Of a stretch of 64,000 nt of DNA, positions 17,643-62,644 are shown in pieces. Source of the DNA: an uncultured Alphaproteobacteria bacterium (GTDB lineage Bacteria > Pseudomonadota > Alphaproteobacteria > Rs-D84); assembly GCA_951801825.1 (NCBI GenBank), contig CATOOF010000002.1:31058-95057 (forward strand). Reading direction: 5' to 3'. Numbering within the stretch: position 1 is the first letter of the stretch; each line of letters starts with the position of its first letter. The notes beneath the pieces are model-generated. The model saw nothing but the letters and a program-made list of their open reading frames with translations, did no database searches and had not been told where the DNA came from. Position numbers and translations under genes: made by a program.

Positions 17643-17678
17643 CTAGATTTTAAGGTGTTTTTAGGATATAATACCGAT

Positions 17679-17847
17679 TGTAATAGGGGACCTATTATGC
17701 GAGACTAACAACCTCGCTCAGTAGACGCCTGCAGGCGTAAAATGCCAATCTATATCGGGATTGGATGGTGGTGAATATTCAATAAACCACATGCATTCTA
17801 CTGTGCAGTTGTTAGCTCCAATCCCGTCCATATCACATGACGGTTTT
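17679..17847 (+). ncRNA. Structured X/Y double-pairing ncRNA, unit D1
   Basis: Promoter TAGATT-17-TATAAT (17644-17672); X CTAACAAC 17705-12 pairs X' GTTGTTAG 17808-15; Y CAGTAGA 17719-25 pairs Y' TCTACTG 17797-803; closing stem GGGATTGGA/TCCAATCCC; terminator CCGTC..GACGG-TTTT. Confidence 0.8.
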
Positions 17848-17903
17848 ATATTTGTACGGAAAAATATTGTGGAAATCATGCGTTCCGCACGGTATAATAA
17901 ATG

Positions 17904-18092
17904 CGTAATAGATTTTCTGTTGCAAAAGAAGGGGCGTGAGAAACCCTATCATCAGAACCGCCTGTGCAGGCGCAGGCGTATGCTTCAACCCATTGGTTGG
18001 AGGCCGGTGCTATATATTGAAGGCACCGGGGCAATTTCGTTCTGATGATTGTTTCTCAACCTCCAACCACCCATATTTCTCGGTGGTTTTTT
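17904..18092 (+). ncRNA. Structured X/Y double-pairing ncRNA, unit D2
   Basis: Promoter TGGAAA-17-TATAAT (17870-17898); X TGAGAAAC 17937-44 / X' GTTTCTCA 18051-58; Y ATCATCAGAAC 17948-58 / Y' GTTCTGATGAT 18039-49; stem GGTTGGAGG/CCTCCAACC; terminator ACCACC..GGTGGT + T-run. Confidence 0.8.
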
Positions 18093-18103
18093 GTTAACTT
18101 GTA

Positions 18104-18478
18104 ATGGGGAAACGCACTATGACCGGGCGCAGATATATTGCATCTGAATTTGACACAAGGCTGGGCCACGCAATATCAATACAGCGTCGGATACGCGGAC
18201 TGTCGCAAAAAGATTTGGCAAGACGTTTGGGTATTACACACCAACAGGTTCAAAAGTATGAATCTGGCGACAATCGTATGACGGCGGCAACATTATATAA
18301 AATTGCCGAAATGTTTGAAATCAGTGTCGATAAGCTGGTATATGACGCGACCAGCAAATTTACGAATGATAAAATAATCCAGCAAACAATGGATTTAATG
18401 TATACGAAAATGGATGTGGCGCAACGCCGGTTAATGTTTAGCATGGCAACATATGTGGCCGGCGTTGCAACCGCATAA
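18104..18478 (+). CDS. XRE-family helix-turn-helix transcriptional regulator
   Basis: RRIRGLSQKDLARRLGITHQQVQKYESGDNR. Confidence 0.9.
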   Translation: MGKRTMTGRRYIASEFDTRLGHAISIQRRIRGLSQKDLARRLGITHQQVQKYESGDNRMTAATLYKIAEMFEISVDKLVYDATSKFTNDKIIQQTMDLMYTKMDVAQRRLMFSMATYVAGVATA

Positions 18479-18480
18479 GA

Positions 18481-21261: not shown

Positions 21262-21307
21262 GGGCGGCCTTTTAGAATTTATTGGGGGCCGTGGCCCCCG
21301 GATTTTT

Positions 21308-21847
21308 TTAGAATATATAGCGTAATTTTACGCGGGCGTCATAATGGAGAATATCCGCGTCTTTTGTGGCAACGCTGTATGCGTCTGGTACGTACAAGGC
21401 GCGCGCCTCTGCATCAATTTTAAACGGCAATACCGGAATATCAAAGGTCAGCCCCAGCATACCCTGATACGCAACCGTTGTGTCAATATCCGGACCGTGA
21501 TCTATTTCGCCGTGAAACATGGCGCCAACACCCGCCCCAATATATGGATTGACAAGCAGCATCGGCATTTTCAAGTACACATTGCCCATAGCAATATGTG
21601 CAGTAATGTCTTTGTCGTTTAAGTAGTTATATTCGCCTTCTATGCGGATAAATGGCACATCCAAACCAATTAATGCGCCATAAGACTGTGCCATGTCGGA
21701 ATGTGTGTCGCCGTCAACAAATGTGGTAACCCCGCCAACACCCGCCGTGGCACCGATATACGGGTCAAACAACAGGTTTGCGCGTGCGTTTGCGGCAGAG
21801 AATATTATTGCCGCCGCAGTTAAAAATCCTGCATATTTTAATTTCAT
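21308..21847 (-). CDS. Small outer-membrane beta-barrel protein
   Basis: Signal peptide, PYIGAGVG, AYQGMLG, terminal YIF. Confidence 0.85.
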   Translation of the reverse strand: MKLKYAGFLTAAAIIFSAANARANLLFDPYIGATAGVGGVTTFVDGDTHSDMAQSYGALIGLDVPFIRIEGEYNYLNDKDITAHIAMGNVYLKMPMLLVNPYIGAGVGAMFHGEIDHGPDIDTTVAYQGMLGLTFDIPVLPFKIDAEARALYVPDAYSVATKDADILHYDARVKLRYIF

Positions 21848-21894
21848 ATTTATCTCCTTTCTATGATATTATAATAGAAAAAAGAGACGGATAT

Positions 21895-24362: not shown

Positions 24363-24392
24363 GTGGATAAAGTTCCTAATATATCTATTGCT

Positions 24393-27556: not shown

Positions 27557-27641
27557 TGGTGCGGATAGGGGGACTTGAACCCCCAAGGATTGCTCCACAG
27601 CATCCTTAGTGCTGCGCGTCTACCAGTTTCGCCATATCCGC
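27557..27641 (-). tRNA. tRNA-Leu, anticodon AAG, CCA encoded
   Basis: GCGGATA acceptor stem, TGGCGAAACTGGTAGACGC D arm, CAGCA-CTAAGGA-TGCTG anticodon arm, long variable arm, GGGGGTTCAAGTCCCCC T arm, ACCA end. Confidence 0.95.
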
Positions 27642-30751: not shown

Positions 30752-30928
30752 CCCGGCGGCAATGCGGCCCGGTACCAGCACCAGAGCCGGGGATAGCGCC
30801 GCCGGGCCATACAGTGTAAGACATTAAGGGGTCGGGGCCCGATACCGTTTCTGTGATTGGAGATGAGAAGACGGTAAAACAGGCCCCGACATTTATTTTT
30901 TACCCACGGATAAATATTTTATTTCCAC
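30752..30928. repeat. 177-bp two-hairpin element E, copy 1 (identical to 50785-50961)
   Basis: Base-by-base identity; hairpins CCCGGCGGC/GCCGCCGGG (30752-30806) and GTCGGGGCC/GGCCCCGAC (30831-30890). Confidence 0.9.
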
Positions 30929-30949
30929 CATAAAACATTCCCGCCGATA

Positions 30950-31126
30950 AAAAATGAACCGCTGTAAAATTTAAGCGGCTGGAGGTCTAAACTATATCAA
31001 TGAAATAGTGGGTTTATTTATGCATATCACCACCCTCCAACCATATAATATAGTCAGAGATTTTTAACGTGCCCCGGCACGCATTGATAAGAGGTTTAGA
31101 TTCCCCACACTAACATCGTTAGTGCA
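30950..31126 (-). ncRNA. Structured X/Y ncRNA, unit A1
   Basis: Promoter TTGCGC-17-TATTAT (31160-31132); + strand GTTTAGA 31094-100 vs TCTAAAC 30986-92, CATTGAT 31082-88 vs ATCAATG 30996-31002; closing stem 30977-31042; terminator CCGC..GCGG-TTCATTTTTT. Confidence 0.8.
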
Positions 31127-31175
31127 CATGAATAATATCATATATAGAAATGTAGCGCAAGAAAAAAATAAATGC

Positions 31176-31363
31176 AAAAACCACTCACTATGAAATGGGC
31201 GGGATTGGAGTATATAAACTATACCAATGATATAGAGCGGCTTATTTGAATCAAAGATTCTTATTCGCCTGCGCTCCAATCCCATAACATAGAGCTATGT
31301 TCATGCTTTTGCATGCATTGGTAAAGAGGTTTAGATTCCTCATATCTGCAACACGCCGATACA
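31176..31363 (-). ncRNA. Structured X/Y ncRNA, unit A2
   Basis: Promoter TTGAAA-17-TATAAT (31398-31370); CATTGGT 31316-22 vs ACCAATG 31223-29, GTTTAGA 31329-35 vs TATAAAC 31213-19 (1 mismatch); stem GGGATTGGAG/CTCCAATCCC. Confidence 0.8.
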
Positions 31364-31410
31364 TAGGTAATTATACATAAGATTTTATAGGATTTCAATA
31401 TATAAAAAGT

Positions 31411-31622
31411 GGTTGGAGCTACAATCTATCGTAAAGTATAGCGGGCTTATTCATGTATATCACCCACTCCAACCATAAAAAGTGGTTGGACGTTAAGAAC
31501 TACTATCAACGAAATAGAACGACTTATTGGTTATTCGTCGTCATCCAACCATAAAAGGCGCCGGGGGTAAGAAACTATCTCGATGGAATAGCCGATTTAT
31601 TTATATATCATCGGCCCCCGGC
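31411..31622 (-). ncRNA. Tandem array of three orphan 3' modules (A3 31411-31474, A4 31484-31550, A5 31560-31622)
   Basis: Each has the closing stem, the GA(A/T)(T/A)..AATAA hairpin and the CTAT-loop-ATAG hairpin; separated by ATAAAAAGT/ATAAAAGGC. Confidence 0.75.
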
Positions 31623-31627
31623 CATGC

Positions 31628-37536: not shown

Positions 37537-39912
37537 CTATTTTACGACCGTGAATCTCGATTCAGCGGCGGCGCCCATTTCATCAATCGCACGGACAGTG
37601 TGTGTGCCTATTGATACGTCGGCTGTTATGGTGTCGCCTGAATTTGTGGTTCCAATTACCGCACCGTCCATAAACCAAAATATTTTTGCATCGGTCATGT
37701 CTGTTGCGGCCTGGAATGATACCTGGGCGGTGTCTTCGTTTGTGACTATAACGATACGTGTGCCATCGGCCGGCGATGTTATAACGGGGGCGCTGCGTGT
37801 ATTTGATATGGTATCCAAATCACACCCAGGCATATACGGCGGCGGGGTGTTACGGGTTATTCCCGCACGGCGAAACATGTCCAGGTATTCTGAATCCCAA
37901 AATTCATAAACCGCCATATGCGTTGTGGCCGGATTGGGATTGCATGCACGACGGCCGCTGGTGTTGTCAATCGGTACTGCGCGATAAACTGACGACATTT
38001 CAATAGGCGATTTGCTCGGAATAAAATAAGATGGTCGTGTCGCAGGGCAATGCGTGCCGGCAATGCCGCCTACGTCTTGGCACATATCTATTTGTGATAT
38101 ATTTAAATCGTCGCGTAAAAAGTTGTTGTTTTTTATCGGTGTGCCGTGTGCCGCATAATATTCCAGCACGCTGTCGGCCATTGCAAAGTATATTGGTGCG
38201 GCTGTTTTTGCGCCTGAAAATGCGTTATTGGGGCGGCCGTCAAAATTGCCAACCCATATAATCAGGACAAAGTCGCCGAATATTCCGGCCGTCCAGGCAT
38301 CACGGTATGAGGATGATGTTCCTGTTTTCCAATAGTGGCGCAGTGGTATGGAATGTTTTTTTGCAAAAGGTATATTTTTATGGTGTGTTTTTTGTTGCGC
38401 CAGCATGTCCAGTGTCAGAAAATATGCCTCTGGCGATAACAGCTGTCTGATTTGTGTATCATCATCTGCAGTAGAAGTTCTTATTTCTCGCCGCAACCCC
38501 AGGTTGGCCATTGTTGAGTAAATATCGGCCAGTTCCCACATTGATACCTCTGCACCGCCCAGGGCAACAGATATTCCGTAATAGCCCGGCGATTTTAAAT
38601 TTGTAACGCCCGAGTGACCCAACAGTGTATGAAAGTTTGCCACCCCCAGCTGACGGACCAGATTTATTGCCGGAATATTTCGCGAATGAGTCAGCGCCTT
38701 GTACGCCAGTACCGGGCCGTAAAACTCGTTGTCTGCATTTTCAGGGGCATATACGCCAAAATTTACCCGTGCATCTTTCAGCAATGTCATGGAATGTATC
38801 AGGCCTGCATCGGCCGCCGCGGCGTATATTAGCGGCTTTAGCGTAGAGCCAGGACTGCGTCTGGCGCGTACGCCGTCATTTTCGCCGAAAATTTCCTTGT
38901 CAAAATAATCGGCGGAGCCAATATATGCCAATGTTTCCATTGTTTTATAGTTTATAAGAATCGCGGCGGCGTTTGTTATTCCAAAACGGCGGCGCTGATT
39001 GATTTGTGCGCGCATTGTTCGGGTTAACTTGTCCTGTAGCATTACATCCAGTGTAGTTGTTATTTCTGATTTTGTTGTTCCGCGCACCGCCAGTGCGCCG
39101 CCATGTTGGGCCGCCATGCGGTTTACGAAGTGGGGGGCCTTGAAGGGCAGGTCGCGCACACTCATTGCCGCCAGCGGCATGCCGGACATTGTACGCAGTG
39201 CCGCATTGTCGCCATTTGCCGCCGTCCAGCGCCGCACCAAATCCCCGCGCATTTGCATCATATTATCCAGACCGCCCGGTGTTGATATGTTACGGTGCGT
39301 CGGATTCTGGGGGATTGCCGCCAATGTTATTGATTCTATGGTTGTTAAATCTGCCGCACGTTTTTGAAAAAATATCAGGGATGCGGCCCCGATGCCCTCT
39401 ATGTTGCCGCCGTATGGGGCCAGGTTCAGGTATGCTTCTAATATTTCATTTTTGGAATGAAATGCATCAATATAAATTGCCGCGGCAATCTGTTTCAGTT
39501 TTCCTAAAGGATGCTTGGTATTGAGGTTATATCGCAGGCGTGCAACCTGCATCGTGATAGTGGATGCGCCAATTGGGCGCGGTGTGTTGCGAAGATATTC
39601 TGATGCCGCCTTTGCCAATGATACCGGGTTTACCCCAGGGTGTATACGAAAATATTTGTCTTCATATAAAATTATTGCACGGGCGGCATCGGGTGCGATG
39701 TCTTTTAGAGGGGTATAGAGTCTGTATTTGTCGTCCGCTGCCAGCGTCATCCGCATCAGGCGGCCATTGCGGTCGTAAAATGCTGTGGAAAAATACGTGT
39801 CCGACAATATGGGGGGGATGAAAAATATGCGTATAACCAGATATATCGTTATGATAAATCCCAATATGGACCATATTTTGTGCCGGCGAATGAAACTAAT
39901 CGTTGCTTTCAT
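37537..39912 (-). CDS. pbpC: Penicillin-binding protein 1C
   Basis: EDKYF..HPGVNP, GASTITMQVAR, SPGSTLKP, SRN, WKTGTS; coupled to alpha-2-macroglobulin. Confidence 0.95.
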   Translation of the reverse strand: MKATISFIRRHKIWSILGFIITIYLVIRIFFIPPILSDTYFSTAFYDRNGRLMRMTLAADDKYRLYTPLKDIAPDAARAIILYEDKYFRIHPGVNPVSLAKAASEYLRNTPRPIGASTITMQVARLRYNLNTKHPLGKLKQIAAAIYIDAFHSKNEILEAYLNLAPYGGNIEGIGAASLIFFQKRAADLTTIESITLAAIPQNPTHRNISTPGGLDNMMQMRGDLVRRWTAANGDNAALRTMSGMPLAAMSVRDLPFKAPHFVNRMAAQHGGALAVRGTTKSEITTTLDVMLQDKLTRTMRAQINQRRRFGITNAAAILINYKTMETLAYIGSADYFDKEIFGENDGVRARRSPGSTLKPLIYAAAADAGLIHSMTLLKDARVNFGVYAPENADNEFYGPVLAYKALTHSRNIPAINLVRQLGVANFHTLLGHSGVTNLKSPGYYGISVALGGAEVSMWELADIYSTMANLGLRREIRTSTADDDTQIRQLLSPEAYFLTLDMLAQQKTHHKNIPFAKKHSIPLRHYWKTGTSSSYRDAWTAGIFGDFVLIIWVGNFDGRPNNAFSGAKTAAPIYFAMADSVLEYYAAHGTPIKNNNFLRDDLNISQIDMCQDVGGIAGTHCPATRPSYFIPSKSPIEMSSVYRAVPIDNTSGRRACNPNPATTHMAVYEFWDSEYLDMFRRAGITRNTPPPYMPGCDLDTISNTRSAPVITSPADGTRIVIVTNEDTAQVSFQAATDMTDAKIFWFMDGAVIGTTNSGDTITADVSIGTHTVRAIDEMGAAAESRFTVVK

Positions 39913-42900
39913 TGATTACCGTGAATGTTCCGCCATTGCCGATTGCAAGTATTTCGGGGTTATACATTGATTGGCCGTATACGGGTGCAATGGTAAATGT
40001 ACCGCTTGTTCCGGCCTGGGCCATGTATTCGTATACAGATTCTTTGCGATTTATATCCGCATAGATTACGATGCGGTCTTCGCGTGTTTCTGCAAATTCA
40101 TATTCCCCGCGCAGTGATTCTGTATCCGCGATAAATCCGCCCGGCAACAGGTCCACGATTACGCCGCCGGGAACGTTTTTAACGTCCCCACGTGCGCGGA
40201 CAAATATTTTTACCAAAACACGGTCGCCGATTTTTGCGCTGGTAATGCGATTTCCGTCAACATCGTAATATTCGCGCGTTATTTCCATGCCCTGGGCGGC
40301 ATGTGCGATATGTGTTGGATATCCCTGGGCGGTTATTGTCCAAAATGGCGCCACGCTGGTTCCACAGTCGGGGCAACGTATATCTATTTTCTTGGCGCCG
40401 GTTGGGATTTTGGCAATAAATGCACCGCTTTTAGTTTCGCTGTGAACAGGTGTGCCGTCGGCTGTTACGGTCAGTAAATCCGTAATCTGGTTTGATGCGC
40501 CGATGTTGCCACTCTGGCCCAGTATGATGGATGCCGCCGTGAAAGATGTGTATTGGCCACTGTTTATATATTTCATTTGTTCCGGTGTCGGTTGTGATGG
40601 ATGGGCACCGAAATAGCGTGACGCCAAATACTGGTAAATAGAATTATTTGCAACTGTGTTGTTGAATTCGGACTCGTATTTTATCCGTGTTTCGGGTTTG
40701 TATGCCGATGCCAGGGATGCGGCGCGATCGTCTTGGTGCATGATGGAATATGCGGCCCCAATGTATGCACCCATCAGCTCTGATTGCCAGTTTTTAAGAT
40801 TGGCGTTTGCCCATTCTTCGAATTGGCCGATGTATGCGGTTGTGACAAATTCGTTTCGTGTAATGATATATATTGCAAATGCATGTGCCGCCGCGTCATG
40901 TGCATCGCGGATATTCGTTCCGGCGTATGTGCGCAGATAGTCCAGCGCACGCGATACCATTTCGCGTGGAACGTTGTAGCCGCGGTCGCGGGCGATGTTT
41001 AAAAACTCTACAACGTATGCGGTTATGTATGCCGCATCGGCGTCGGACTCATTGTTGCGTCCCGTGCCGCCGCCAGCCCACATTGCAAAAGAGCCATCAT
41101 CGTTTTGTCGATTTTTTAGAGTATTAACAGTATCAGTAATTTTTTTTGCCGCCATGTCATTCGTTATACCTAGAATATTGCTGGAACCGATGACGGCGTA
41201 TGGAATGGCGCGTGATATCATCTGTTCCGTACAGTTCCATTCGTAATGGTTCAGATATTCGACCAATGGGCGGACAACCGCATCAGAGCCATATGAGACA
41301 TACAAATTGTGTACCGCGTTTTCTGGATACATATCCGGCTTTTTAGGTTTCAGAACTGTTTTTTGTGAGTCCAGTCGGCCTATTTGAATATTGGTAATAT
41401 ATGGTGTCGCGGGGCGAACGGACATTGTTGCAACTGCACGGCCGATGGAATCGGGGCCGTTTGCAGATACATCTATGTCGGCAGAGCCCAGTGTGTTGCC
41501 GGCTGTGGCGTGATATGTTACCAATGAATCCGTGCCCTGGGCTATTTCAATGTCTGAGATTGGGCGCCCGGTTATATCTATGCCGGCGGAAGTTCCAGCG
41601 TTTACAGTAAACTTTTGGGGCTTTTCATTATCGGTCAGGTTTGTAACAACCGCATTTATATCGAATTTATCGCCGGGTGCCACGGCCAGTGGTGCGTTTA
41701 TTGTGACTATGACCGGGTGGCGGATTGTAACGGACGTGTCGGCGGCGCCGATGCTGGATTCGCCGGCGGCGATGGCAAATACGCGCAGTGTTCCGTTAAA
41801 CGAATCCGGGATTTGAAATGTTACACTGCCAGGTTTGCCGGCCGTGGCGGTTATTATTTTTGAATAGAATGCGACCGGCTTGTCCAGGCGGCGCGCAAAA
41901 GGATTGGCAATACCAGGCGTCGCACCGATCATGTCGTCATAATCTCCGCCGCCTGTTTTTGCAAATTCATGCAGTATTTTGTATTCGGGCAGTATCAGTG
42001 ACAGGATTTGGTATGTTTCAACCTGTAGTGCCGCTTTTTTAAAGAAGTGTTTTATCGGATTGGGAATCTGATAGCGTGCGACCTGCAATATGCCGTCGTT
42101 TACGGCAAATATCATCAAACGAGCATCGCGGTTGGTTTCATATTTAACGGTAAGCTTTGATTCCGCCAGTGTTTCCGGGGCATTCAGTTTTATTCCGATT
42201 GTGCGCCGCGCAGTGTCCGCCATAAAGGGCGCCACCGCATAAGTATATGGCGTTGTGAATATATCCCGACTGTTGATGTCGCGAACAAACGACACGTTTA
42301 CGTAACCTGTTCCCTCAAATCCTGCGGGAACTTCAATGTTTTGCACGGACTGGGTCGTGTCGGCCTTAAACCATTTATGGGCGTAAACTTTGTCGCGCTC
42401 TATCGTAATAAGGCCATATCCGGCATACGGGGATGTAACCGCTACGGATATGTTGTCACCGGGCGAATAAGATTGTGCGTTTAGTTTTATCTGTAATTGT
42501 GCAACGGTATCAGACCGCAGTTCGGTATTGACGTCGCCGGTAACAAAATATTCAATGTTTGCCATTGTTCGCCCGGCGGCGTCCATAACTTGCAGATAGT
42601 ATGTTCCCGGCGTTGTGGTGTCTAAATTTATATCCATCCCGTTTGCGGGCAGTGATATGTTTTCACTGGTAACGATTTTGTCGCGTGAAACAGTTTGATA
42701 TTTGTAATATCCCGCGCCATCTTTTACCAGGCTGGTTAAATTTTCACGGCGTATCAGACGCATTTCAATATCTGTTGCCGCGGTGCGCGTACCCGTGTGG
42801 TCAACCGCGATAAGATTAACGCTGCGTTTTGCGCCACGGTTTATATATGACAAATCAGAGTTGGCATGCCATCCGACAAGATATTTGGCGTTTGATATGC

Positions 42901-45646
42901 GACCGCTTAGCGCTGTTTGGACACTGCGACCGGCGCCGTTTTCAAATCCTTGGACAATAAGGGTCATGGAATATGTCGAATTGTCATATATTGCATCTGA
43001 TATGTCCATGTCGATTATGGCGCGGCCGTCGGAATCAGTCTTTATATCCTTGAATTCGCGTGTTATTGTTTTGCCGGCGGCATTTGCGGACATTCCACCG
43101 CCCGATATGAAATTGTCTGTAAATTTATATCCCGGAAATTCTTTGAACGAGAATGTTGTCGGGGTTAATATCACACGCGCCGCCACAATGTGGTCGGCCG
43201 CCGGTGTGCCGAACATGTTTCGCAATGAAACATCGGCGTTAATATTTGTCGCCGCCGACCAGCCGTTGTCGGTCATGCCGGCGATAGTGGCGCTTATTTT
43301 TAAATTGTCGGGGGTAAATTCTTCAACACGACAGCTGGTATAGCCCAATATTTCTTGCGGCTTGTTTTTCGCGTTCAGCGAAAACAGCTGGATATTGTAT
43401 TCGCCCAGCGGGGCATTTTCAGATATATCATACGAGATATCGAACATTCCGTCCGCGTTTAATGAAAATGTCTTTTCTAGCGCCAGGCGTCCGCGCGCGT
43501 CACGCATTTCCAGTTTAACAGGTATGCCGGGAATGCCTGAAAAGTTATCGCGTTTTACAATTCCGCCTATCATCAAATTTTCGCCCGGGCGGTATATTCC
43601 GCGGTCTGTGAACATAAATGCGTTTAGTGATGTCGTCGGTGATGCGTATACGCCGTCTATATCGAATTTGGAATATTCAACGTGTCTGTCGTATGGACTG
43701 TCGTACGGGATAAAAGAGACATCATCGCCATTGCGTGCCACGATGGCAACCGGTGCTTTTTCGTTTTTGTACTCATTCCAGGGCAGTGCCGGTATGTTGG
43801 CACGACCTGTATCGTCTGTTCTACCGGCCCATACGGGGTTTCCGTTGCGCCCCAATACATATATTTCTATATCGGCGGCCGGTGTGCCGGATGTTATACC
43901 GGAAACGAATACGGTTGATGACTGGTCTAGATTTACCTTTCGGATAATGCCAAAATTTGTCAGTAATATCAAACGGCGGTCGCTGAAATCTGTTTGGGAT
44001 TGTGTTGGGCCGGTTTGAATGATAAAGATTCCTGTCTTGTCTGAGTTAGTACGATCCAAATAGTCGCCCAAATCTACGGATGCATAGTTGACGCGTTTCA
44101 TGGATGTATCAGCAAAGCCGATACGCTTTTTGAAAACAACAGACATATCATATGTATCAAAAGACCAAGATTTAAACTCTATTGCGCCAAACACATTATA
44201 TGTTTGAGATATAAGATGATTTATTTCCTCAGACTTTACCTTGTATAGATTTACGTATGCCGCATCGGCCCCGCCGCGTGCCGCAATCCCAAGCTTTTTT
44301 TCGCCCCCCAGTGCTAATAATGCACCACTGCCCGCGATTTTTACCGTGCGTGCAGGATAGGGGACCTTTAATACGCGGCCGGCGCCGTTTTTTAATTCAA
44401 AGCCGGCGGCCGATTTGAATCCGGGCAGAATTTTTGCATAAATGAACCTGTCGCTTTTTTCGGATACATCGTACGAAAAAGCATACTGGTATGTGCCGGT
44501 CGGATTTTCAAAATCAATTTTCTTAAGTGCCAGTTTTTCTGATTTTTTTATTACTGCATCTGTAATTTCATCGGCGGCCCAGCTGTGCGGTTTTTCCTGG
44601 TCTGTGCTTCCATCGCGGTTTCGTGGCAACAAAAACAGCTCTATATATTGGGCCCATTTTGTGTTGTCGGCCGCGGCGGATGTCGTGTCTATTAATAACA
44701 GTTGCTGGGGCGTGCCGTTTGAATCATCTGCAACAGTGGTATTTATTTCAGATATTTTAAATATGTTGTCGGCAGATTCTATTGTTGTGTTTCCTGTTAC
44801 TTTTTGCGTCATTGCATCGCCCGTGGCGGCTGGAATTCGGTTAAGCTTTATACGCAGAACCTGGGGGGCGTCGGTTATGGCAACCGGTGCGGATGTTATA
44901 ATTGCCGTTCTGTGAAATCGATCGAATTTTACATTAAATTCAATGTGTTTGCCGTCCAGTCGCATTTTTACACGATCAGAAAACTTTTTTGTGTCCACGG
45001 GATAATTAAATGATATTACCGCGGCCGCGATTACAGATTTGTCGGCGGCGGGATATGTGTTAAATGATTCGACTGTTGCGACAATATCAGATGTTGTAAA
45101 TGCTATGCGGGATGTATTTGCGCGTATTTCGGTGTTTAATATGTTTGGATTTATTTTTACTGTGAATTTGGTATCGGCGGGCAGTTCGTGTTTTGGGCGA
45201 AAAACTAGTGCATTTGGTCCGCGGCGCATCCATGTTCCCTGGATGGCCGGGTCTATCTTTACGCCGGATTCAATGTCTGCATCTGTTAAATCCATGCGCA
45301 GGGCGGGGGCGTAATCGCCGGATACCTGGTCATATAATAATACAAGTTCGCCAGGCATTCCGATTTCTCGATTGTTGTTTGGTTCCGGTATTGCCGCGAC
45401 CCCTATAAAATCAGCGGCGGCGTTGTCTGAAAAGACGGACGGGGTCGGCGCAGTGACCGATATTTCAAATCGGGGCCGGTCGCTTTTTCCAATTATTGTC
45501 GTCAGGGCATATATCACACCGGCCAAACCGATAACGGTAAGAACTGAAATAATCGTTTTTTTCCATATTTTTTTTATGGCGGTTGGCTGATTTTTTACCT
45601 GTTTTCCGGAATTTATTCTTGATTTTTTCATGTTTTGCCCTTCCAT
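39896..45646 (-). CDS. Bacterial alpha-2-macroglobulin (YfhM-like)
   Basis: FTDRGIYRPGE, VEEFTPD, GGGD, thioester CTEQ, QNDDGSFAMW, VDLLPGGF, REDR. Confidence 0.95.
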   Translation of the reverse strand: MEGQNMKKSRINSGKQVKNQPTAIKKIWKKTIISVLTVIGLAGVIYALTTIIGKSDRPRFEISVTAPTPSVFSDNAAADFIGVAAIPEPNNNREIGMPGELVLLYDQVSGDYAPALRMDLTDADIESGVKIDPAIQGTWMRRGPNALVFRPKHELPADTKFTVKINPNILNTEIRANTSRIAFTTSDIVATVESFNTYPAADKSVIAAAVISFNYPVDTKKFSDRVKMRLDGKHIEFNVKFDRFHRTAIITSAPVAITDAPQVLRIKLNRIPAATGDAMTQKVTGNTTIESADNIFKISEINTTVADDSNGTPQQLLLIDTTSAAADNTKWAQYIELFLLPRNRDGSTDQEKPHSWAADEITDAVIKKSEKLALKKIDFENPTGTYQYAFSYDVSEKSDRFIYAKILPGFKSAAGFELKNGAGRVLKVPYPARTVKIAGSGALLALGGEKKLGIAARGGADAAYVNLYKVKSEEINHLISQTYNVFGAIEFKSWSFDTYDMSVVFKKRIGFADTSMKRVNYASVDLGDYLDRTNSDKTGIFIIQTGPTQSQTDFSDRRLILLTNFGIIRKVNLDQSSTVFVSGITSGTPAADIEIYVLGRNGNPVWAGRTDDTGRANIPALPWNEYKNEKAPVAIVARNGDDVSFIPYDSPYDRHVEYSKFDIDGVYASPTTSLNAFMFTDRGIYRPGENLMIGGIVKRDNFSGIPGIPVKLEMRDARGRLALEKTFSLNADGMFDISYDISENAPLGEYNIQLFSLNAKNKPQEILGYTSCRVEEFTPDNLKISATIAGMTDNGWSAATNINADVSLRNMFGTPAADHIVAARVILTPTTFSFKEFPGYKFTDNFISGGGMSANAAGKTITREFKDIKTDSDGRAIIDMDISDAIYDNSTYSMTLIVQGFENGAGRSVQTALSGRISNAKYLVGWHANSDLSYINRGAKRSVNLIAVDHTGTRTAATDIEMRLIRRENLTSLVKDGAGYYKYQTVSRDKIVTSENISLPANGMDINLDTTTPGTYYLQVMDAAGRTMANIEYFVTGDVNTELRSDTVAQLQIKLNAQSYSPGDNISVAVTSPYAGYGLITIERDKVYAHKWFKADTTQSVQNIEVPAGFEGTGYVNVSFVRDINSRDIFTTPYTYAVAPFMADTARRTIGIKLNAPETLAESKLTVKYETNRDARLMIFAVNDGILQVARYQIPNPIKHFFKKAALQVETYQILSLILPEYKILHEFAKTGGGDYDDMIGATPGIANPFARRLDKPVAFYSKIITATAGKPGSVTFQIPDSFNGTLRVFAIAAGESSIGAADTSVTIRHPVIVTINAPLAVAPGDKFDINAVVTNLTDNEKPQKFTVNAGTSAGIDITGRPISDIEIAQGTDSLVTYHATAGNTLGSADIDVSANGPDSIGRAVATMSVRPATPYITNIQIGRLDSQKTVLKPKKPDMYPENAVHNLYVSYGSDAVVRPLVEYLNHYEWNCTEQMISRAIPYAVIGSSNILGITNDMAAKKITDTVNTLKNRQNDDGSFAMWAGGGTGRNNESDADAAYITAYVVEFLNIARDRGYNVPREMVSRALDYLRTYAGTNIRDAHDAAAHAFAIYIITRNEFVTTAYIGQFEEWANANLKNWQSELMGAYIGAAYSIMHQDDRAASLASAYKPETRIKYESEFNNTVANNSIYQYLASRYFGAHPSQPTPEQMKYINSGQYTSFTAASIILGQSGNIGASNQITDLLTVTADGTPVHSETKSGAFIAKIPTGAKKIDIRCPDCGTSVAPFWTITAQGYPTHIAHAAQGMEITREYYDVDGNRITSAKIGDRVLVKIFVRARGDVKNVPGGVIVDLLPGGFIADTESLRGEYEFAETREDRIVIYADINRKESVYEYMAQAGTSGTFTIAPVYGQSMYNPEILAIGNGGTFTVINESND

Positions 45647-50784: not shown

Positions 50785-50961
50785 CCCGGCGGCAATGCGG
50801 CCCGGTACCAGCACCAGAGCCGGGGATAGCGCCGCCGGGCCATACAGTGTAAGACATTAAGGGGTCGGGGCCCGATACCGTTTCTGTGATTGGAGATGAG
50901 AAGACGGTAAAACAGGCCCCGACATTTATTTTTTACCCACGGATAAATATTTTATTTCCAC
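50785..50961. repeat. 177-bp two-hairpin element E, copy 2
   Basis: Identical to 30752-30928. Confidence 0.9.
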
Positions 50962-50982
50962 TAACAAACATTCCCGCCGATA

Positions 50983-51157
50983 AAAAATGAACCGCTGTAA
51001 AATTTAAGCGGTTGGAGGTTAACAACTATATTAAGGTATAGCCCAGTTCATTCAAGTATATCACTGGCCTCCAACCAAAGAAGTTAGAGTTTTATCACGC
51101 CCCGGCGTGTTTCCTTAATAAGAGGTTGTTATGCCTCGCACTAACATCGTTAGTGCA
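50983..51157 (-). ncRNA. Structured X/Y ncRNA, unit B1
   Basis: Promoter TTGCGC-17-TATTAT (51191-51163); GTTGTTA 51125-31 vs TAACAAC 51020-26; CCTTAAT 51113-19 vs ATTAAGG 51030-36; stem 51010-51076. Confidence 0.8.
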
Positions 51158-51206
51158 GATGAATAATATCATATATATAAATGCGGCGCAAGAAAAAAAT
51201 AAATGC

Positions 51207-51383
51207 AAAAACCACTCAATGGAAAATAGGTGGGGTGGGAGAATAACAATCACTATTAAGAATGACGCAGTTTATTGGTTATTCACTGCTCTCCAACCCC
51301 AGAACATCCAGAGTCAATCATACCTTGGTATGATAATCTTAATAATAGGTTGTTATGCCTAATACCGACAACACATCGATACA
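51207..51383 (-). ncRNA. Structured X/Y ncRNA, unit B2
   Basis: Promoter TTGAAA-17-TATAAT (51418-51390); TTGTTAT 51350-56 vs ATAACAA 51243-49; TCTTAATA 51337-44 vs TATTAAGA 51254-61; stem 51232-51300. Confidence 0.8.
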
Positions 51384-51423
51384 TAGGTAATTATACATAA
51401 GATTTTATAGGATTTCAATATAT

Positions 51424-51584
51424 AAAAAGTGGTTGGAGGTTCTAAACTAACATAAGATTAGCGGATTTATTGAGCCAAAGGCTTTATTCATCGCCCTCCA
51501 ACCCCGTGGTTACCAGAGTTTTATCATAATAATATGCTATGTGAAATGGGTTTAGAAGCCCAATACCGACAACACATCGATACA
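51424..51584 (-). ncRNA. Structured X/Y ncRNA, unit B3
   Basis: Promoter TTGAAA-17-TATAAC (51619-51591); GTTTAGAA 51550-57 vs TTCTAAAC 51440-47; TATGT 51538-42 vs ACATA 51450-54; stem 51431-51503. Confidence 0.75.
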
Positions 51585-51692
51585 TAGGTAGTTATACATA
51601 AGATTTTGTAGGATTTCAATATATTTAAACATCTGAAAAAGTTGCGTGGACGCTAAAAAGCTGATATCATTTGGGCAAAAGGGATTTTAGGT

Positions 51693-57458: not shown

Positions 57459-57480
57459 AAAACGGGGATTTTCCCCGTTT

Positions 57481-61100: not shown

Positions 61101-61657
61101 ACACCGGCGGCCAGCAGTCCAAATCCACGCCATTTGGCGCCAGTATGAAATTCGCCATTGGCGGAAAAGAGCATGCAAAAAAAGATTTGGGTATGATTGC
61201 AATGATGTCGGGTGCATATGTTGCACAAATTGCAATGGGCGCAAACCAGGCCCAGGCAATTAAGGCCTTCCGTGAGGCAGAGGCATATCCGGGACCTTCA
61301 ATTATTCTGGCATATGCGCCATGTATCGCACATGGATACGCTCTGCAGAACGGTCCCCAGCACCAGGCAGACATGGTTAACACAGGGGCATGGCCGCTGT
61401 ATCGCTTTGACCCGCGCAGGGTGGCCCAGGGGGAAAATCCACTGATGATGGATTCCGCGGCGGTTGCAACGGTTCCGTTAGAAGATTTCCTGGCGTCTGA
61501 ATCACGTTTTAAGGCGGCGCGTGCGGCAAATCCTCATTTTGACGCACTGGTTGAAATGGCAAAGGCAAATAACAAGTACAAGGCAGAGCTGAAAAAATAT
61601 ATCGCTCAGTTCGCCATGCACGATATGCCGGCCAAGAAAGAAAACGGCCAGGGCTAA
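58148..61657 (+). CDS. nifJ: Pyruvate:ferredoxin (flavodoxin) oxidoreductase
   Basis: IYPITPSS, EMQSEAGAAG, DGFRTSHE, two CxxCxxCxxxCP, GACAGCGETPY, GGDGWAYDIG. Confidence 0.97.
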   Translation: MSKLIVDGNWAAADVAYRCVDFAAIYPITPSSTMGELADEWSFQHKKNIWGAIPQIIEMQSEAGAAGAMHGALQVGSLATTFTASQGLLLMIPNMYKIAGEQTPFVMHVAARALATHALSIFGDHSDVMAVRQTGFAMLSSHNVQQASDMAAIAHAATLRARVPFLHFFDGFRTSHEESRLTRITDDVLHEMIPDNLVLENRARGMTPDAPTIRGTAQNPDVYFQGREAANPLYVKTPEIVQEMMDRFAELTGRRYNLVDYVGDPAAENVIVAMGSACETIEETLAHLPAGLGLLKIHLYRPFPAAAFMAALPKTVKRIAVLDRTKEPGALGEPLYQDVKTIVGDSAQVFGGRYGLGSKEFKPRDVKAVYENLMRGELKHNFTVGIEDDLTGLSLKTDPAFAVEDPNFKTAILYGIGSDGTVGAVKNIVKIVGENSDLYPQSYAVYDSKKSGGLTASHIRFSDAPIKSQYLIEVADFISVSNFMIAQRFDVFKGLRAGGTVMINTSMAPDVAFANLPRDAQEHLIRMRAKVYFLDANRAARELGLGNRINTFIMLNFFNLTHVIDPAVAAQSAKVAIEKTYKKKGMDIVEANWAAVDRASEFLHEYTLPSSVSNFAPDFVPAMTADAPAEIAGTLGEIAAQRGDAIPVSRFKVDGEFGAGQYPVGTAKYEKRAISEMVATCDLDKCIQCGKCAMLCPHAAIRIKAMTAAEAEKARAEGIIVVPMKTPELGPDMYFTLNISAADCTGCNICVNNCPVKALALKSAREVGTQQQARFDAAEKLPDMPREKLNLNIPKHVELLPHYFEFPGACAGCGETPYVRMLSHLFGDRMVVANATGCSSIYGANLPTTPWTTDANGRGPAWSNSLFEDNAEYGLGMRLALNQKREMLKSLLFELGVEDIEQMFDETDAAKSRANAEMLREKLRKIEGPRARLAESLIGEIVDKSVWIIGGDGWAYDIGYGGLDHILHSGENVNILVLDTEGYSNTGGQQSKSTPFGASMKFAIGGKEHAKKDLGMIAMMSGAYVAQIAMGANQAQAIKAFREAEAYPGPSIILAYAPCIAHGYALQNGPQHQADMVNTGAWPLYRFDPRRVAQGENPLMMDSAAVATVPLEDFLASESRFKAARAANPHFDALVEMAKANNKYKAELKKYIAQFAMHDMPAKKENGQG

Positions 61658-61684
61658 GCTAAAATAAAGCGCGAATCTTAAATA

Positions 61685-61718
61685 AAAATCCCCCCGGATG
61701 TTTTCTGGGGGGGATTTA
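61685..61718. terminator. Bidirectional terminator
   Basis: AAATCCCCCCGGA..TCTGGGGGGGATTT between convergent genes. Confidence 0.75.
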
Positions 61719-61722
61719 ACTG

Positions 61723-62328
61723 TTAACTGCCGCTGTAATAGCAATTATTTGTCCAAGAGAAAGTGCCGCTGTTATCATTGTGTGTTGTTCCGGTCGGCTC
61801 ATAGCATTGTGTTATATATTTTGATGCAGCCGCTGATGTTCCCTGGGATGGGCAGGACGTGCATATGGTGTCTGATATGCCTGTGCCGGTCGGGCTGCCA
61901 TAGTATCCTGGGACGCATCGATATTCATATGTTGCATTGCATGTGTTACAAACACATTTTCTGGTAGCTTTTTGTTGTACGCCGGTATTCAAAATGGGTT
62001 CGGACCAGTCTGTGTCGCTGACACAATTATTGCAGCCAGTGCATGGTTCTTGACATTCATAGTATGTTACCTCGTTTGAGCAGCCAGGGGCTAATACGCT
62101 TTTTTGCACCCGCAGAAATCCTGATGGACATACATCACATGTTATTACTTGATTAGAGCCCCAATAAAAAGAACTCCGCTGTTCGCAATATATTAATGAT
62201 ACATTAATTTGCGGGCATTGATTATAGCCCAACGGACAGCTGATCTGCCTCTGGCATAGTGTATTTGCAATTGTCTGTGTGGTAAAGAGAAAGGCAATTG
62301 CGCTTGTAAGGAAAAAATATTTTTGCAT
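61723..62328 (-). CDS. Secreted Cys-rich hypothetical protein (201 aa)
   Basis: AGGAG RBS, signal peptide, C-terminal CxPGYYG..CTSCP..TS..ITQCY..DNSG..CYY. Confidence 0.85.
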   Translation of the reverse strand: MQKYFFLTSAIAFLFTTQTIANTLCQRQISCPLGYNQCPQINVSLIYCEQRSSFYWGSNQVITCDVCPSGFLRVQKSVLAPGCSNEVTYYECQEPCTGCNNCVSDTDWSEPILNTGVQQKATRKCVCNTCNATYEYRCVPGYYGSPTGTGISDTICTSCPSQGTSAAASKYITQCYEPTGTTHNDNSGTFSWTNNCYYSGS

Positions 62329-62357
62329 AAATCAATCTCCTGAATCTTTTACAAAGT

Positions 62358-62575
62358 AAAAACCACCAATCATTGGTGGTCAGGAGGTTAACGACAATTG
62401 TTGGAATTGTGCCGCTTATTCAATATATTCGCGAGCCCTCCTGACCCATAAGTGGGTTTTCAGGAGTTGTTTTTCGTCATCGATAGTAAAAAGGGCGCAA
62501 ATTGCGCGCCACTGGTATCTATTCCCGACGCCAACATAGAGGTCGTTACACCCCATCCACGGAACACCCGTGAAC
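62358..62575 (-). ncRNA. Structured X/Y ncRNA, unit C (long linker)
   Basis: Promoter TTGCAT-17-TATAAT (62610-62582); GTCGTTA 62542-48 vs TAACGAC 62389-95; CCAACA 62531-36 vs TGTTGG 62399-404; stem GGTCAGGAGG/CCTCCTGACC; terminator ACCACCAAT-G-ATTGGTGGT + T-run. Confidence 0.8.
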
Positions 62576-62644
62576 CATATAATTATACTGCGTGTGAAAT
62601 GGGAATGCAATATTAAAAAGCGACCCAAACGGGCCGCTTTTACA

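What the first reader, a model, noticed from the sequence alone, without database searches (positions are those of the whole stretch)
17644..62610. Dispersed multi-copy family of self-contained structured ncRNAs with two co-varying lock-and-key pairings
Seen: eight complete units at four loci (D1, D2 on +; A1, A2, B1, B2, B3, C on -). Layout in each: sigma70-like promoter with 17-nt spacer; 5' hairpin; a short stem (GAGG/CCUC, UAGG/CCUA, UGGG/CCCA, GCGAG/CUCGC, i.e. compensatory) whose loop holds segment X; single-stranded segment Y; a linker hairpin; a 3' domain closed by GGUUGGAG/CUCCAACC (variants GGGAUUGGA/UCCAAUCCC, GGUCAGGAGG/CCUCCUGACC) containing an A-rich GAAUA..AAUAA hairpin, a hairpin whose loop is Y', then X'; then a terminator or U-tract. 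X/X' and Y/Y' vary between units yet match within each unit: D1 CUAACAAC+CAGUAGA; D2 UGAGAAAC+AUCAUCAGAAC; A1 UCUAAAC+AUCAAUG; A2 UCUAAAC (1 mismatch)+ACCAAUG; B1 UAACAAC+AUUAAGG; B2 AUAACAA+UAUUAAGA; B3 UUCUAAAC+ACAUA; C UAACGAC+UGUUGG. Inference: a double-pseudoknot or kissing fold maintained by selection across many paralogues. I do not recognise it as a known Rfam class. Candidate roles: ribozyme, RNA oligomer or cage built by intermolecular loop pairing (as in phi29 pRNA), protein-sponge RNA, or programmable guide scaffold. No obvious partner protein is encoded next to the arrays.
Basis: partly seen in the sequence, partly recalled or inferred. Interest (0 to 1): 0.95.

Follow-up and report, generated by a model that had tools for sequence, protein, structure and literature searches.

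The report
Self-addressed antisense-RNA leaders, massively amplified
The repeated units are real structured RNA leaders, distant relatives of the phage-type antisense RNAs sRNA-Xcc1 and c4, each carrying its own matching two-part address, and about 48 of them sit in front of genes in a genome of only 0.9 million bases.

Summary
All 8 units exist, plus 3 stand-alone 3' domains beside locus A. The 897-kb genome carries about 48 such elements. The family occurs in 23 of 24 genomes sampled from the genus and in some sister families.

X/X' and Y/Y' pair far better within a unit than between units (-16.0 against -6.1 kcal/mol). They covary at every position tested. A near-identical strain has swapped them wholesale while staying complementary.

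The family is not unknown in kind. The 3' domain is a sub-threshold relative of Rfam sRNA-Xcc1 (28-41 bits, cut-off 53), detected in both directions. It shares the same helices and the same GAAUA...AAUAAG loop. The upstream X-Y partner matches the a1/b1 layout described for phage P1 c4 and the seqA layout of P4.

New here are four things. One is the copy number. Another is an extra segment 'a' that competes with the closing stem. Another is a terminator overlapping that stem, with a start codon 41-59 nt further on in 22 units. The last is loss of the ribosome-site copy that canonical sRNA-Xcc1 loci keep.

My best reading is a two-state leader that sets termination before small HTH and cysteine-rich secreted protein genes. 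Expression and mechanism are untested.

The parts
17644..17847 (+). Unit D1, from -35 to the terminator T-run. -35 17644-17649; -10 17667-17672; 5' hairpin 17680-17698; stem with X in its loop 17699-17717 (X 17705-17712); Y 17719-17725; hairpin 3 17726-17737; segment 'a' 17745-17750; 3' domain 17757-17825 (Y' 17797-17803, X' 17808-17815); terminator 17824-17847.
   Evidence: Sequence read; promoter; pairing -23.5 kcal/mol, rank 1 of 38; model hit 49.7 bits.
17870..18092 (+). Unit D2, the leader of the HTH gene. -10 17893-17898; X..Y 17937-17958; 3' domain 17995-18068 (Y'..X' 18039-18058); terminator to 18092.
   Evidence: pairing -26.1 kcal/mol, rank 1; 51.7 bits.
18104..18478 (+). Gene directly downstream of D2: a small Cro/C1-type helix-turn-helix protein.
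   Evidence: Pfam HTH_3, E 5.5e-14. An SD-preceded ATG lies 50 nt after the 3' domain.
31557..31623 (-). Stand-alone 3' domain As1, with a GGCCGGGGG/CCCCCGGC closing stem and no 5' domain.
   Evidence: model hit 50.9 bits; no cognate upstream partner (rank 19 of 38).
31484..31550 (-). Stand-alone 3' domain As2.
   Evidence: 62.9 bits; rank 8 of 38.
31411..31474 (-). Stand-alone 3' domain As3.
   Evidence: 54.2 bits; rank 25 of 38.
31176..31398 (-). Unit A2. -10 31375-31370; X..Y 31333-31312; 3' domain 31282-31202.
   Evidence: 51.5 bits. Weakest cognate pairing in the window: -11.3 kcal/mol, rank 9.
30966..31160 (-). Unit A1. -35 31160-31155 and -10 31137-31132 (read by eye); X..Y 31100-31082; 3' domain 31042-30977.
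   Evidence: 56.7 bits; rank 1.
30752..30986 (-). 235-nt structured repeat that follows A1 in place of an ORF.
   Evidence: 98% identical second copy; fold -95.3 kcal/mol, z -5.9; third, diverged copy after another tandem pair of units.
51424..51619 (-). Unit B3. -35 51619-51614 and -10 51596-51591 (read by eye); 3' domain 51503-51431.
   Evidence: 62.6 bits; rank 2.
51223..51418 (-). Unit B2. -10 51395-51390; X..Y 51356-51337; 3' domain 51298-51234.
   Evidence: 62.5 bits; rank 2.
50999..51191 (-). Unit B1. -10 51168-51163; X..Y 51131-51113; 3' domain 51076-51010.
   Evidence: 73.8 bits; rank 1.
50785..51019 (-). Second copy of the 235-nt structured repeat, following B1.
62358..62610 (-). Unit C, of the GGUCAGGAGG/CCUCCUGACC class, with 'a' = CUCCUGA. 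-10 62587-62582; X..Y 62548-62531; 3' domain 62446-62378; terminator to 62358.
   Evidence: 63.3 bits; rank 1.
61723..62328 (-). Gene directly downstream of C: a 201-aa cysteine-rich protein with an N-terminal hydrophobic, signal-like stretch and no Pfam family.
   Evidence: ATG 49 nt after the 3' domain; 0 families.

Best explanation
Each unit is a transcribed leader RNA built from two parts.

The 3' domain is a divergent member of the sRNA-Xcc1 / c4 type of antisense RNA. It has a 9-bp closing stem b:c, a hairpin H1 with a conserved GAAUA...AAUAAG internal loop, a hairpin H2 presenting Y', and single-stranded X'.

The 5' domain carries the matching address, with X in a hairpin loop and Y just after it. 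This is the position that published work gives to a1/b1 in phage P1 and seqA in P4.

The leader can take two mutually exclusive folds.

- Extended fold: GAGG-X-Y pairs with Y'-X'-CCUC. An extra segment 'a' (CUCCAAC) pairs with b. The freed 3' end of c completes an intrinsic terminator.
- Cloverleaf fold: b pairs with c. X and Y' sit in loops, and the terminator loses its outer 2-4 base pairs.

The balance between the folds sets how much transcription reaches the gene that starts about 50 nt downstream. These genes encode small XRE-type HTH proteins and orphan cysteine-rich secreted proteins.

Shown here: the elements, their covariation, the near-orthogonal addresses, the geometry relative to genes, and the kinship to sRNA-Xcc1.

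Inferred: that termination is what is regulated. Also inferred is what flips the switch. My leading guess is the unit's own released 3' domain (terminated or RNase P-processed) acting in trans on the X-Y site of nascent transcripts. That would be RNA autoregulation of the P4 CI or IsrK kind.

Odds by step: homology to sRNA-Xcc1 about 0.85; leader or attenuator role about 0.6; trans self-regulation about 0.3.
For: Family size. The model R1 finds 41 loci in the own genome. A second class with a GGUCGGGG closing stem adds 7.

Structure. 12 of 16 predicted pairs of the 3' domain show compensatory changes. X:X' shows them at 5 of 5 pairs and Y:Y' at 7 of 7.

Addresses. For the 33 full units of alignment A1, the cognate mean is -16.0 kcal/mol against -6.1 (sd 2.6) for non-cognate. 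Only 18 of 1056 non-cognate pairs come within 2 kcal/mol of the cognate value. Six of those 18 are between units of the same tandem array.

Ortholog swap. The nearest strain, G198, has flanking proteins 95.5-98% identical. In its D1-D2 region the D1 promoter and 5' hairpin are 90% identical. D2's closing-stem 3' strand, terminator and leader are 98% identical. The X/Y and Y'/X' segments are only 22-47% identical, yet each new pair is again complementary and a, b and c change together (pairings read by eye).

Kinship. RF02221 hits reach 28-41 bits against a cut-off of 53, with the same helix order. R1 in turn hits 9 of 30 sRNA-Xcc1 loci from other Proteobacteria exactly at the annotated RNA, and the GAAUA...AAAUAAG loop aligns.

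Leader geometry. 23 of 48 units are followed by an SD-preceded ATG ORF of at least 45 aa. In 22 of these the start lies 41-59 nt after the 3' domain, which leaves no room for a separate promoter. The products are 6 HTH proteins plus D2's, and proteins with no Pfam family.

Switch. In 38 of 48 units the hairpin after the domain uses 2-4 nt (6 in one unit) of c. In one of these (As2) the pairing is with the next repeat. Segment 'a' changes with b across classes: CUCCAAC, CUCCUGA, CCAAUC, CCAGUUC, CCCGAC. The minimum-energy fold of the full leader has a:b in 34 of 37 units evaluated. It has the extended X':X helix in 33 of 37. Forcing b:c costs a median of 11 kcal/mol (24 units). The isolated 3' domain folds as the cloverleaf.

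Literature, passages read. P4 CI RNA pairs with seqA and seqC and causes premature termination, and IsrK acts in trans on its own read-through transcript (PMC4825925, sections 12 and 21). c4 has a' and b' loops and is processed by RNase P at GGW, and Acinetobacter has a large family of C4-like sRNAs (PMC5320573). A 'c4-a1b1' motif is listed in PMC2864571.
Against: No transcription data of value exist. Only assembled contigs were available. One 217-nt contig of an RNA run covers 17679-17895, and contigs cannot show ends or strand, and DNA may be present in that library.

Unlike c4 and canonical sRNA-Xcc1 loci, there is no second address copy at the downstream ribosome site (-10.8 against -9.9 kcal/mol). 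So the known translational mechanism does not apply here, and termination control is inferred from geometry alone.

Nested folding energies ignore pseudoknots and co-transcriptional kinetics. X:X' and Y:Y' are sterically compatible with either state of b, so it is not clear how docking would decide the outcome.

About half of the units (25 of 48) have no ORF by my criteria. These are upstream members of tandems, or units followed by a 235-nt structured repeat.

I ran no shuffle control for a:b.

Among paralogues the address positions are only slightly less conserved than the rest (73% against 79%, p 0.017). Selection for orthogonality is therefore not shown, and the ortholog swap could be plain gene conversion.

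The C4 model itself finds nothing in the genome.
Confidence: 0.6

Rival explanations
1. The units are genes for independent trans-acting small RNAs. The 3' domain, released from the precursor, pairs through X' and Y' with distant mRNAs or with incoming mobile DNA transcripts. The 5' domain only masks it or guides its processing. Read-through into the next gene is incidental.
For: sRNA-Xcc1 was detected as an 88-nt RNA and is described as trans-acting (PMC2996969 passages; title of Chen 2011 as cited in PMC12189769). Five stand-alone 3' domains exist, two of them with their own promoter. The Acinetobacter C4-like RNAs were proposed to have host targets (PMC5320573).
Against: When the addresses are replaced between close strains, both sides change together while all flanking DNA stays the same. 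No conserved external target is therefore needed. A genome-wide search for bipartite sites gave many equally good chance sites and no convincing target, including for the stand-alone domains. The constant 41-59 nt spacing to a start codon in 22 units argues for a cis role.
Confidence: 0.2
2. This is a purely cis-acting sensor. X:X' and Y:Y' are ordinary long-range helices of one fold. A common factor decides between terminator and read-through in all units. That factor would be a protein or small ligand bound by the invariant GAAUA...AAUAAG loop of H1.
For: The H1 internal loop is the most conserved single-stranded part, from this genome to distant sRNA-Xcc1 loci. The a:b, b:c and c:terminator arrangement looks like a classical attenuator. 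Helices constrained on only two sides can drift or be swapped without any selection for specificity.
Against: No candidate binding protein was found beside the units, and Hfq was not found in the genome (genome 95.7% complete). Non-cognate pairing is almost entirely absent (1038 of 1056 pairs). The known relatives work by RNA-RNA pairing.
Confidence: 0.15
3. The repeats act at the DNA level, as miniature mobile elements or attC-like recombination sites whose inverted repeats happen to fold.
For: X ends in AAC and X' begins with GUU, which recalls attC core sites (from memory). Copy number varies from 2 to 50 between genomes of the genus. Interiors are exchanged between strains. sRNA-Xcc1 is often found in integron cassettes (10.1101/2025.06.18.660453, passages).
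Against: The structure is strand-specific, with many G:U pairs. Scores are 70-83 bits on the sense strand against 20-28 bits on the antisense strand. Every unit has a promoter upstream and a terminator downstream, in fixed orientation relative to the following gene. I saw no terminal inverted repeats or target duplications. I did not search for an integrase.
Confidence: 0.03
4. One reading: a self-cleaving ribozyme, an RNA cage or oligomer built by loop-loop pairing, a protein sponge, or a programmable guide scaffold for a nuclease or recombinase.
For: The RNA has variable loop sequences on a constant scaffold.
Against: No ribozyme or guide-RNA family matched in Rfam, even at E up to 10. No effector gene lies nearby. 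The addresses pair within a unit and not between units. That leaves oligomers of identical molecules untested but unsupported.
Confidence: 0.02

Closest known systems
sRNA-Xcc1 (Rfam RF02221), first found in Xanthomonas campestris
   Same: The order of elements is the same: a 9-bp closing stem, hairpin 1 with a GAAUA...AAUAAG internal loop, hairpin 2, a single-stranded linker, then R-C-C and a U-run. Detection works in both directions below threshold. Canonical loci also carry an upstream stem-loop with X, followed by Y. They also lie upstream of a gene in the same orientation; the Xanthomonas integron preprint reports sRNA-Xcc1 upstream of symE (passages read).
   Different: Scores stay below the curated cut-off (best 41 against 53 bits). 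Canonical loci have a terminator right after the 5' X-Y element and a second X-Y copy flanking the Shine-Dalgarno of the next gene (plus reading). Here that copy is missing and the terminator sits after the 3' domain. Copy number is 1-6 per genome in the 35 genomes with matches, against about 48 here.
c4 antisense RNA of phages P1/P7 with its a1/b1 and a2/b2 sites (Rfam RF01695; 'c4-a1b1' motif of Weinberg 2010)
   Same: Both use two short variable segments on a three-helix scaffold. Both have complementary copies upstream in the same transcript. In both, specificity is changed by co-variation of both partners, as in P1/P7 heteroimmunity (passages in PMC5320573 and PMC12197685). The 5' end of the closing stem begins GGU or GGA, like the reported RNase P site GGW.
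   Different: The C4 model gives no hit at E up to 10. There is no a2/b2 at the downstream ribosome site, no phage genes nearby, and no blastn match to phage or plasmid collections. Processing was not tested.
P4 CI RNA (seqA-seqB-seqC) and Salmonella IsrK/STnc1160
   Same: In both, an RNA made from a leader pairs with a site in the same leader, and the outcome is premature termination or activation of the read-through transcript. Alternative folds of one transcript decide expression (PMC4825925, sections 12 and 21, read).
   Different: The isrK model does not hit the units. There is no downstream seqC-like copy. Whether pairing promotes or prevents termination here is unknown.
Acinetobacter baumannii 'Group 1' C4-like sRNAs
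   Same: This is also a large family of c4-type RNAs inside one bacterial genome. They are made from longer transcripts with an upstream region and vary in the address loops (PMC5320573 passages).
   Different: That family meets the C4 model. Self-complementary upstream addresses and a leader position before genes were not described in the passages I read. The host is a free-living gammaproteobacterium with a genome several times larger.
Classical transcription attenuators (1:2, 2:3, 3:4 helices, for example the trp leader; from memory)
   Same: Three overlapping helices, a:b, b:c and c:terminator, cannot all form at once.
   Different: There is no leader peptide. The deciding input appears to be an RNA-RNA address, not a ribosome, tRNA or metabolite.

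Membership tests
sRNA-Xcc1 (RF02221) | Score at or above Rfam's gathering cut-off (53 bits) | tested here: not met
   No hit in the window at gathering. Ten sub-threshold hits of 28-41 bits in the own genome. None of the window's own units is among them.
sRNA-Xcc1 (RF02221) | Secondary structure: closing stem enclosing two hairpins and a single-stranded linker, followed by RCC and a U-run | tested here: met
   The alignments to the model place all helices. The consensus of 38 copies agrees.
sRNA-Xcc1 (RF02221) | Reciprocal recognition by a model built only from this genome | tested here: met
   R1 hits 9 of 30 loci holding RF02221 matches, all at the position of that match, with E from 6.5e-6 to 0.35 and eight below 0.01.
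sRNA-Xcc1 (RF02221) | Second copy of the address flanking the Shine-Dalgarno of the downstream gene. This feature was seen here in canonical loci and is not part of Rfam's definition. | tested here: not met
   Canonical loci: cognate -19.2 against -14.6 kcal/mol, 11 of 24 ranked first or second. This genome: -10.8 against -9.9 kcal/mol.
sRNA-Xcc1 (RF02221) | Exists as a discrete RNA of about 88 nt | not testable with these tools
   Only assembled contigs of RNA runs were on hand.
C4 antisense RNA (RF01695) | Match to the covariance model | tested here: not met
   0 matches at E up to 10 in the own genome.
C4 antisense RNA (RF01695) | a' and b' complementary to a1/b1 upstream in the same transcript | tested here: met
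   The analogous X/Y and X'/Y' pairing is present.
C4 antisense RNA (RF01695) | a2/b2 target at the ribosome site of the next gene, in a phage immunity context | tested here: not met
   No downstream copy. Neighbouring genes include L9, PolA, TyrRS and CarD. No phage match.
C4 antisense RNA (RF01695) | 5' end made by RNase P at GGW | not testable with these tools
   36 of the 38 aligned 3' domains begin GGU or GGA; the other two begin GGC. RNase P RNA is present in the genome. Cleavage was not tested.
isrK (RF01394) / P4 seqA-type leader RNA | Match to the covariance model at the 5' domain | tested here: not met
   35 weak hits in the genome, none at a unit.
Integron attC sites | Imperfect inverted repeat acted on as single-stranded DNA, next to an integron integrase or in a cassette array | not tested
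   I considered this because of the AAC/GUU ends of X and X'. I set it aside on strand specificity, promoters and terminators. I did not search for an integrase.

The most novel reading that the evidence does not exclude
A reduced, apparently Hfq-less alphaproteobacterial lineage may have turned a phage-type immunity RNA into a general gene-control device. About 48 leaders would each carry a private two-part address. Each unit's short RNA would then act only on its own nascent transcript to set termination. That would put roughly 1 gene in 20 under protein-free, mutually insulated RNA feedback loops. The addresses could be exchanged as cassettes between strains.

A corollary is that the whole sRNA-Xcc1 family, across Proteobacteria, would be a three-site c4-like module: upstream decoy, antisense RNA, and ribosome-site target. 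It would control the gene downstream of it, for example symE.
Probability: 0.3. Interest if true: 0.8.

Novelty: new variant of a known kind. Interest (0 to 1): 0.6.

Why it matters
The finding links an orphan Rfam family of unknown mechanism (sRNA-Xcc1) to the c4/P4 logic of address-matched antisense control. It also shows that this logic can be multiplied to dozens of insulated copies in a very small genome that seems to lack Hfq.

If the switch works as proposed, it is a natural set of orthogonal RNA-only regulators, each about 150-230 nt long. That would interest people working on gene regulation in uncultured gut Alphaproteobacteria and people designing RNA circuits.

It also gives a concrete, testable hypothesis for the canonical sRNA-Xcc1 loci found upstream of genes such as symE.

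Tried and rejected
Rfam. At gathering score over the whole window, only a tRNA was found. E-value scans of locus A gave only noise, including a C/D-box snoRNA look-alike at E 2.4 that I do not credit.

Earlier ideas I dropped:
- TIGR or CRISPR-like arrays, box C/D or H/ACA guides, group II EBS/IBS pairs, and T-box. None matched in the Rfam scans, there were no effector genes nearby, and I saw no box C/D-type sequence motifs by eye.
- attC sites (see the rivals).

Downstream copies of the address were not found.

Trans targets. The first genome-wide scan timed out with no output. The second listed only the trivial antisense strand of each locus. The third gave many chance sites as good as the cognate one and no convincing partner for the five stand-alone domains.

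Test for faster change of address positions among 12 hand-picked paralogue pairs: 73% against 79% identity, p 0.017. The comparison is unclean because the 'rest' includes promoter flanks, so this is not evidence for diversifying selection.

Synteny. Only 1 of 29 related loci (G198) keeps L9-D1-D2-HTH-PolA together. Orthologue-level covariation therefore rests on that one strain.

RNA evidence. All 8 runs offered hold only small shares of the stretch (0.05-0.10 of its sampled words) and are kept as contigs. Four were laid. Nothing can be said about starts, ends, strand or level. Parts without cover mean nothing.

Phage and plasmid collections gave no blastn match with D2.

Hfq family: no match in a genome that is 95.7% complete.

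Not in print, as far as these searches reach. 'sRNA-Xcc1' appears in 24 papers. I read passages in four of them, and none describes this lineage or the three-site layout. 'c4-a1b1' or 'C4 antisense' appears in 28 papers. Chen et al. 2011 is not held. Weinberg 2010's Additional file 1, which describes c4-a1b1, could bear on novelty and was not seen. The same holds for the candidate lists of the human-microbiome RNA screen (PMC8040213, listing only).

An earlier count said 21 of 38 ranked first. The count is 20.

Full report
**What is there.** Read on the RNA strand, each unit has these parts in order:

- a -35/-10 pair with a 17-nt spacer;
- a 5' hairpin;
- a 4-5 bp stem (GAGG/CCUC and variants) whose loop holds X;
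- Y immediately after that stem;
- usually a third hairpin;
- a 65-80 nt 3' domain.

The 3' domain is closed by GGUUGGAGG/CCUCCAACC or a co-varying variant. Inside it are hairpin H1 with a GAAUA...AAUAAG internal loop, hairpin H2 with Y' in its loop, and single-stranded X'. A hairpin and T-run follow. They stand head to tail just upstream of A2 (31623-31411, - strand).

**Size of the family.** I aligned 38 copies of the 3' domain. RNAalifold gave 16 consensus pairs, 12 of them with compensatory changes. The covariance model R1 built from that alignment finds 41 loci in the window's own genome, 11 of them in the window. Sense scores are 42-83 bits for all but two weak copies. The antisense strand of the same loci scores 20-28 bits.

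A second class with a GGUCGGGG/CCCCGACC stem and a longer H1 adds seven units of the same design. That makes about 48 units in 897 kb, of which five are 3' domains alone.

R1 matches 23 of 24 other genomes of the genus, with 2-50 matches each under the stricter filters. It also matches 7 of 16 genomes from five sister families of the order. Sources name close TyrRS relatives 'Alphaproteobacteria bacterium' MAGs.

**The lock-and-key pairings.**

- Against whole upstream regions, the cognate mean is -15.2 kcal/mol and the non-cognate mean -9.7. 20 of 38 rank first and 29 of 38 rank in the top three. The five stand-alone domains rank 8th to 37th, as expected.
- Restricted to the address site, the 33 full units give -16.0 against -6.1 (sd 2.6). 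Only 18 of 1056 non-cognate pairs come within 2 kcal/mol of the cognate value. Six of those are between units of the same tandem array.
- The usual geometry is 7 bp, a 2-3 nt gap, then 7 bp.
- On 11 aligned full leaders, all 5 X:X' and all 7 Y:Y' pairs change on both sides. 92.9% of cells pair against 32-54% in slid controls. No shuffle of 500 reaches the observed values. Kinship inflates that last figure.

The sharpest evidence comes from the nearest strain, G198. Its L9, HTH and PolA proteins are 95.5-98% identical. In its D1-D2 region the D1 promoter with 5' hairpin is 90% identical. D2's closing-stem 3' strand with terminator and leader is 98% identical. The segments carrying X/Y and Y'/X' are only 22-47% identical. 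Even so, each new X pairs with its new X' and each new Y with its new Y'. Segment a and both closing-stem strands change together (pairings read by eye).

**Relation to known RNAs.** No Rfam family reaches its gathering score. With E-values, the 3' domain matches sRNA-Xcc1 (RF02221) at 28-41 bits against a cut-off of 53, in 10 places in the genome. Every helix is aligned.

The reverse also holds. RF02221 passes its cut-off in 24 of 151 genomes sampled across the phylum. R1 hits 9 of the 30 loci fetched from that search, exactly at the RNA. The GAAUA...AAAUAAG loop lines up.

Reading those canonical loci, I found the same upstream element: a GGGG-X-CCCC stem-loop followed by Y. There it is followed by its own terminator. 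I also found a second X-Y copy flanking the Shine-Dalgarno of the next gene. Cognate against non-cognate energies were -29.2 against -22.0 kcal/mol upstream and -19.2 against -14.6 downstream.

Papers describe that three-site layout for phage P1 c4 (a1/b1, a'/b', a2/b2) and, with seqA/seqB/seqC, for P4. I read passages in PMC5320573, PMC12197685 and PMC4825925, and the motif list in PMC2864571. The C4 and isrK models themselves do not hit the units. I therefore file the family as a divergent branch next to sRNA-Xcc1 that works like c4, not as a member of C4.

**What differs here.** The downstream address copy is absent. Three other features stand out.

- A segment 'a' just upstream of the 3' domain is complementary to the 5' strand b of the closing stem. 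It changes with b from class to class.
- The hairpin before the T-run borrows the last 2-4 nt of the closing stem's 3' strand c (6 nt in one unit) in 38 of 48 units.
- An SD-preceded ATG ORF follows in 23 of 48 units. In 22 of them it starts 41-59 nt after the domain.

The ORFs encode small Cro/C1-type HTH proteins and signal-peptide-like, cysteine-rich proteins with no Pfam family. Most of the other units are upstream members of tandems. A few are followed by a 235-nt structured repeat in place of an ORF.

**How it probably works.** Nested folding of the full leader puts GAGG-X-Y against Y'-X'-CCUC as one interrupted helix. That helix encloses hairpin 3, an a:b hairpin and H1, and the terminator is complete. 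This 'extended' fold is the minimum-energy structure: a:b in 34 of 37 units evaluated and X':X in 33 of 37. Forcing b:c costs a median of 11 kcal/mol (24 units).

The 3' domain alone folds as the closed cloverleaf. So does one of five leaders when cut before the terminator's 3' half.

Covariation supports helices from both folds: b:c, H2 and the X stem on one side, and a:b on the other. This points to a two-state leader in which the closed state weakens the terminator.

What tips the balance is inference. By analogy with P4 CI and IsrK, I favour the unit's own released 3' domain acting in trans on nascent X-Y sites. That would also give a reason for the near-orthogonal addresses. A common factor binding the invariant H1 loop is a live alternative.

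Evidence for diversifying selection is weak. The strain-level swap could be gene conversion.

**Expression.** Expression is not shown. Only contigs of runs holding small shares were available. One RNA-run contig spans 17679-17895, beginning 7 nt after D1's -10 box. Contigs cannot define ends or strand.

**Verdict.** This is a real, strongly supported RNA family. It is a new variant of a known kind (sRNA-Xcc1 / c4-type address-matched antisense leaders). It is notable for its amplification to about one gene in twenty in a minimal genome and for its terminator-linked two-state design.

Noticed in passing
window 30752-30986 and 50785-51019 (- strand); also G000:C1:282120-282269 and a 36-nt piece at G000:C2:280085-280120: A 235-nt, highly structured repeat (98% identical copies; -95.3 kcal/mol, z -5.9) follows the last unit of arrays A and B. 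A 79%-identical copy follows a third tandem pair on contig C1. It takes the place that an ORF has after other units. It has no Rfam match and holds only tiny ORFs.
   Followed up: partly
loci L069-L092 (other Proteobacteria): Canonical sRNA-Xcc1 loci carry three copies of a two-part address. One is an upstream stem-loop plus flank with its own terminator. One is the sRNA itself. One flanks the Shine-Dalgarno of the next gene. This is a c4-like layout that the sRNA-Xcc1 papers I read do not mention.
   Followed up: partly
G000:C2:338974-339061, 235671-235756, 325330-325413, 150813-150893, 169038-169131; G000:C1:103522-103607, 120797-120874: A second class of units has a GGUCGGGG/CCCCGACC closing stem and a longer first hairpin. 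These are the best sub-threshold matches to RF02221 (up to 41 bits). They have the same promoter, X/Y, 'a', terminator and downstream-ORF design.
   Followed up: partly
genus-wide: The number of model matches per genome ranges from 0 or 2 up to 50 within one genus. Only the closest strain keeps the D locus in place. The family is gained, lost and exchanged quickly.
   Followed up: partly
L042 (G017:C18:584-652, - strand): In this unit of a related genome, X and X' do not match by eye, and Y seems to be missing. It may be a decayed or hybrid copy.
   Followed up: no
whole genome G000: No Hfq family match in a genome that is 95.7% complete. RNase P RNA is present at C2:182248-182577.
   Followed up: partly
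window 27560-27641 (- strand): An 82-nt tRNA with a long variable arm is the only Rfam match in the window at gathering score.
   Followed up: no
window 14158-14253: Two 39-nt direct repeats (95% identical, 57 nt apart) lie inside the long ORF 13658-16147 (- strand).
   Followed up: no
window 62645-63970 (- strand) and 39896-45646 (- strand): An autotransporter beta-domain protein lies just upstream of unit C. A 1916-aa ORF lies elsewhere in the window. Together with the many cysteine-rich secreted proteins, these suggest a surface-rich, host-associated way of life.
   Followed up: no
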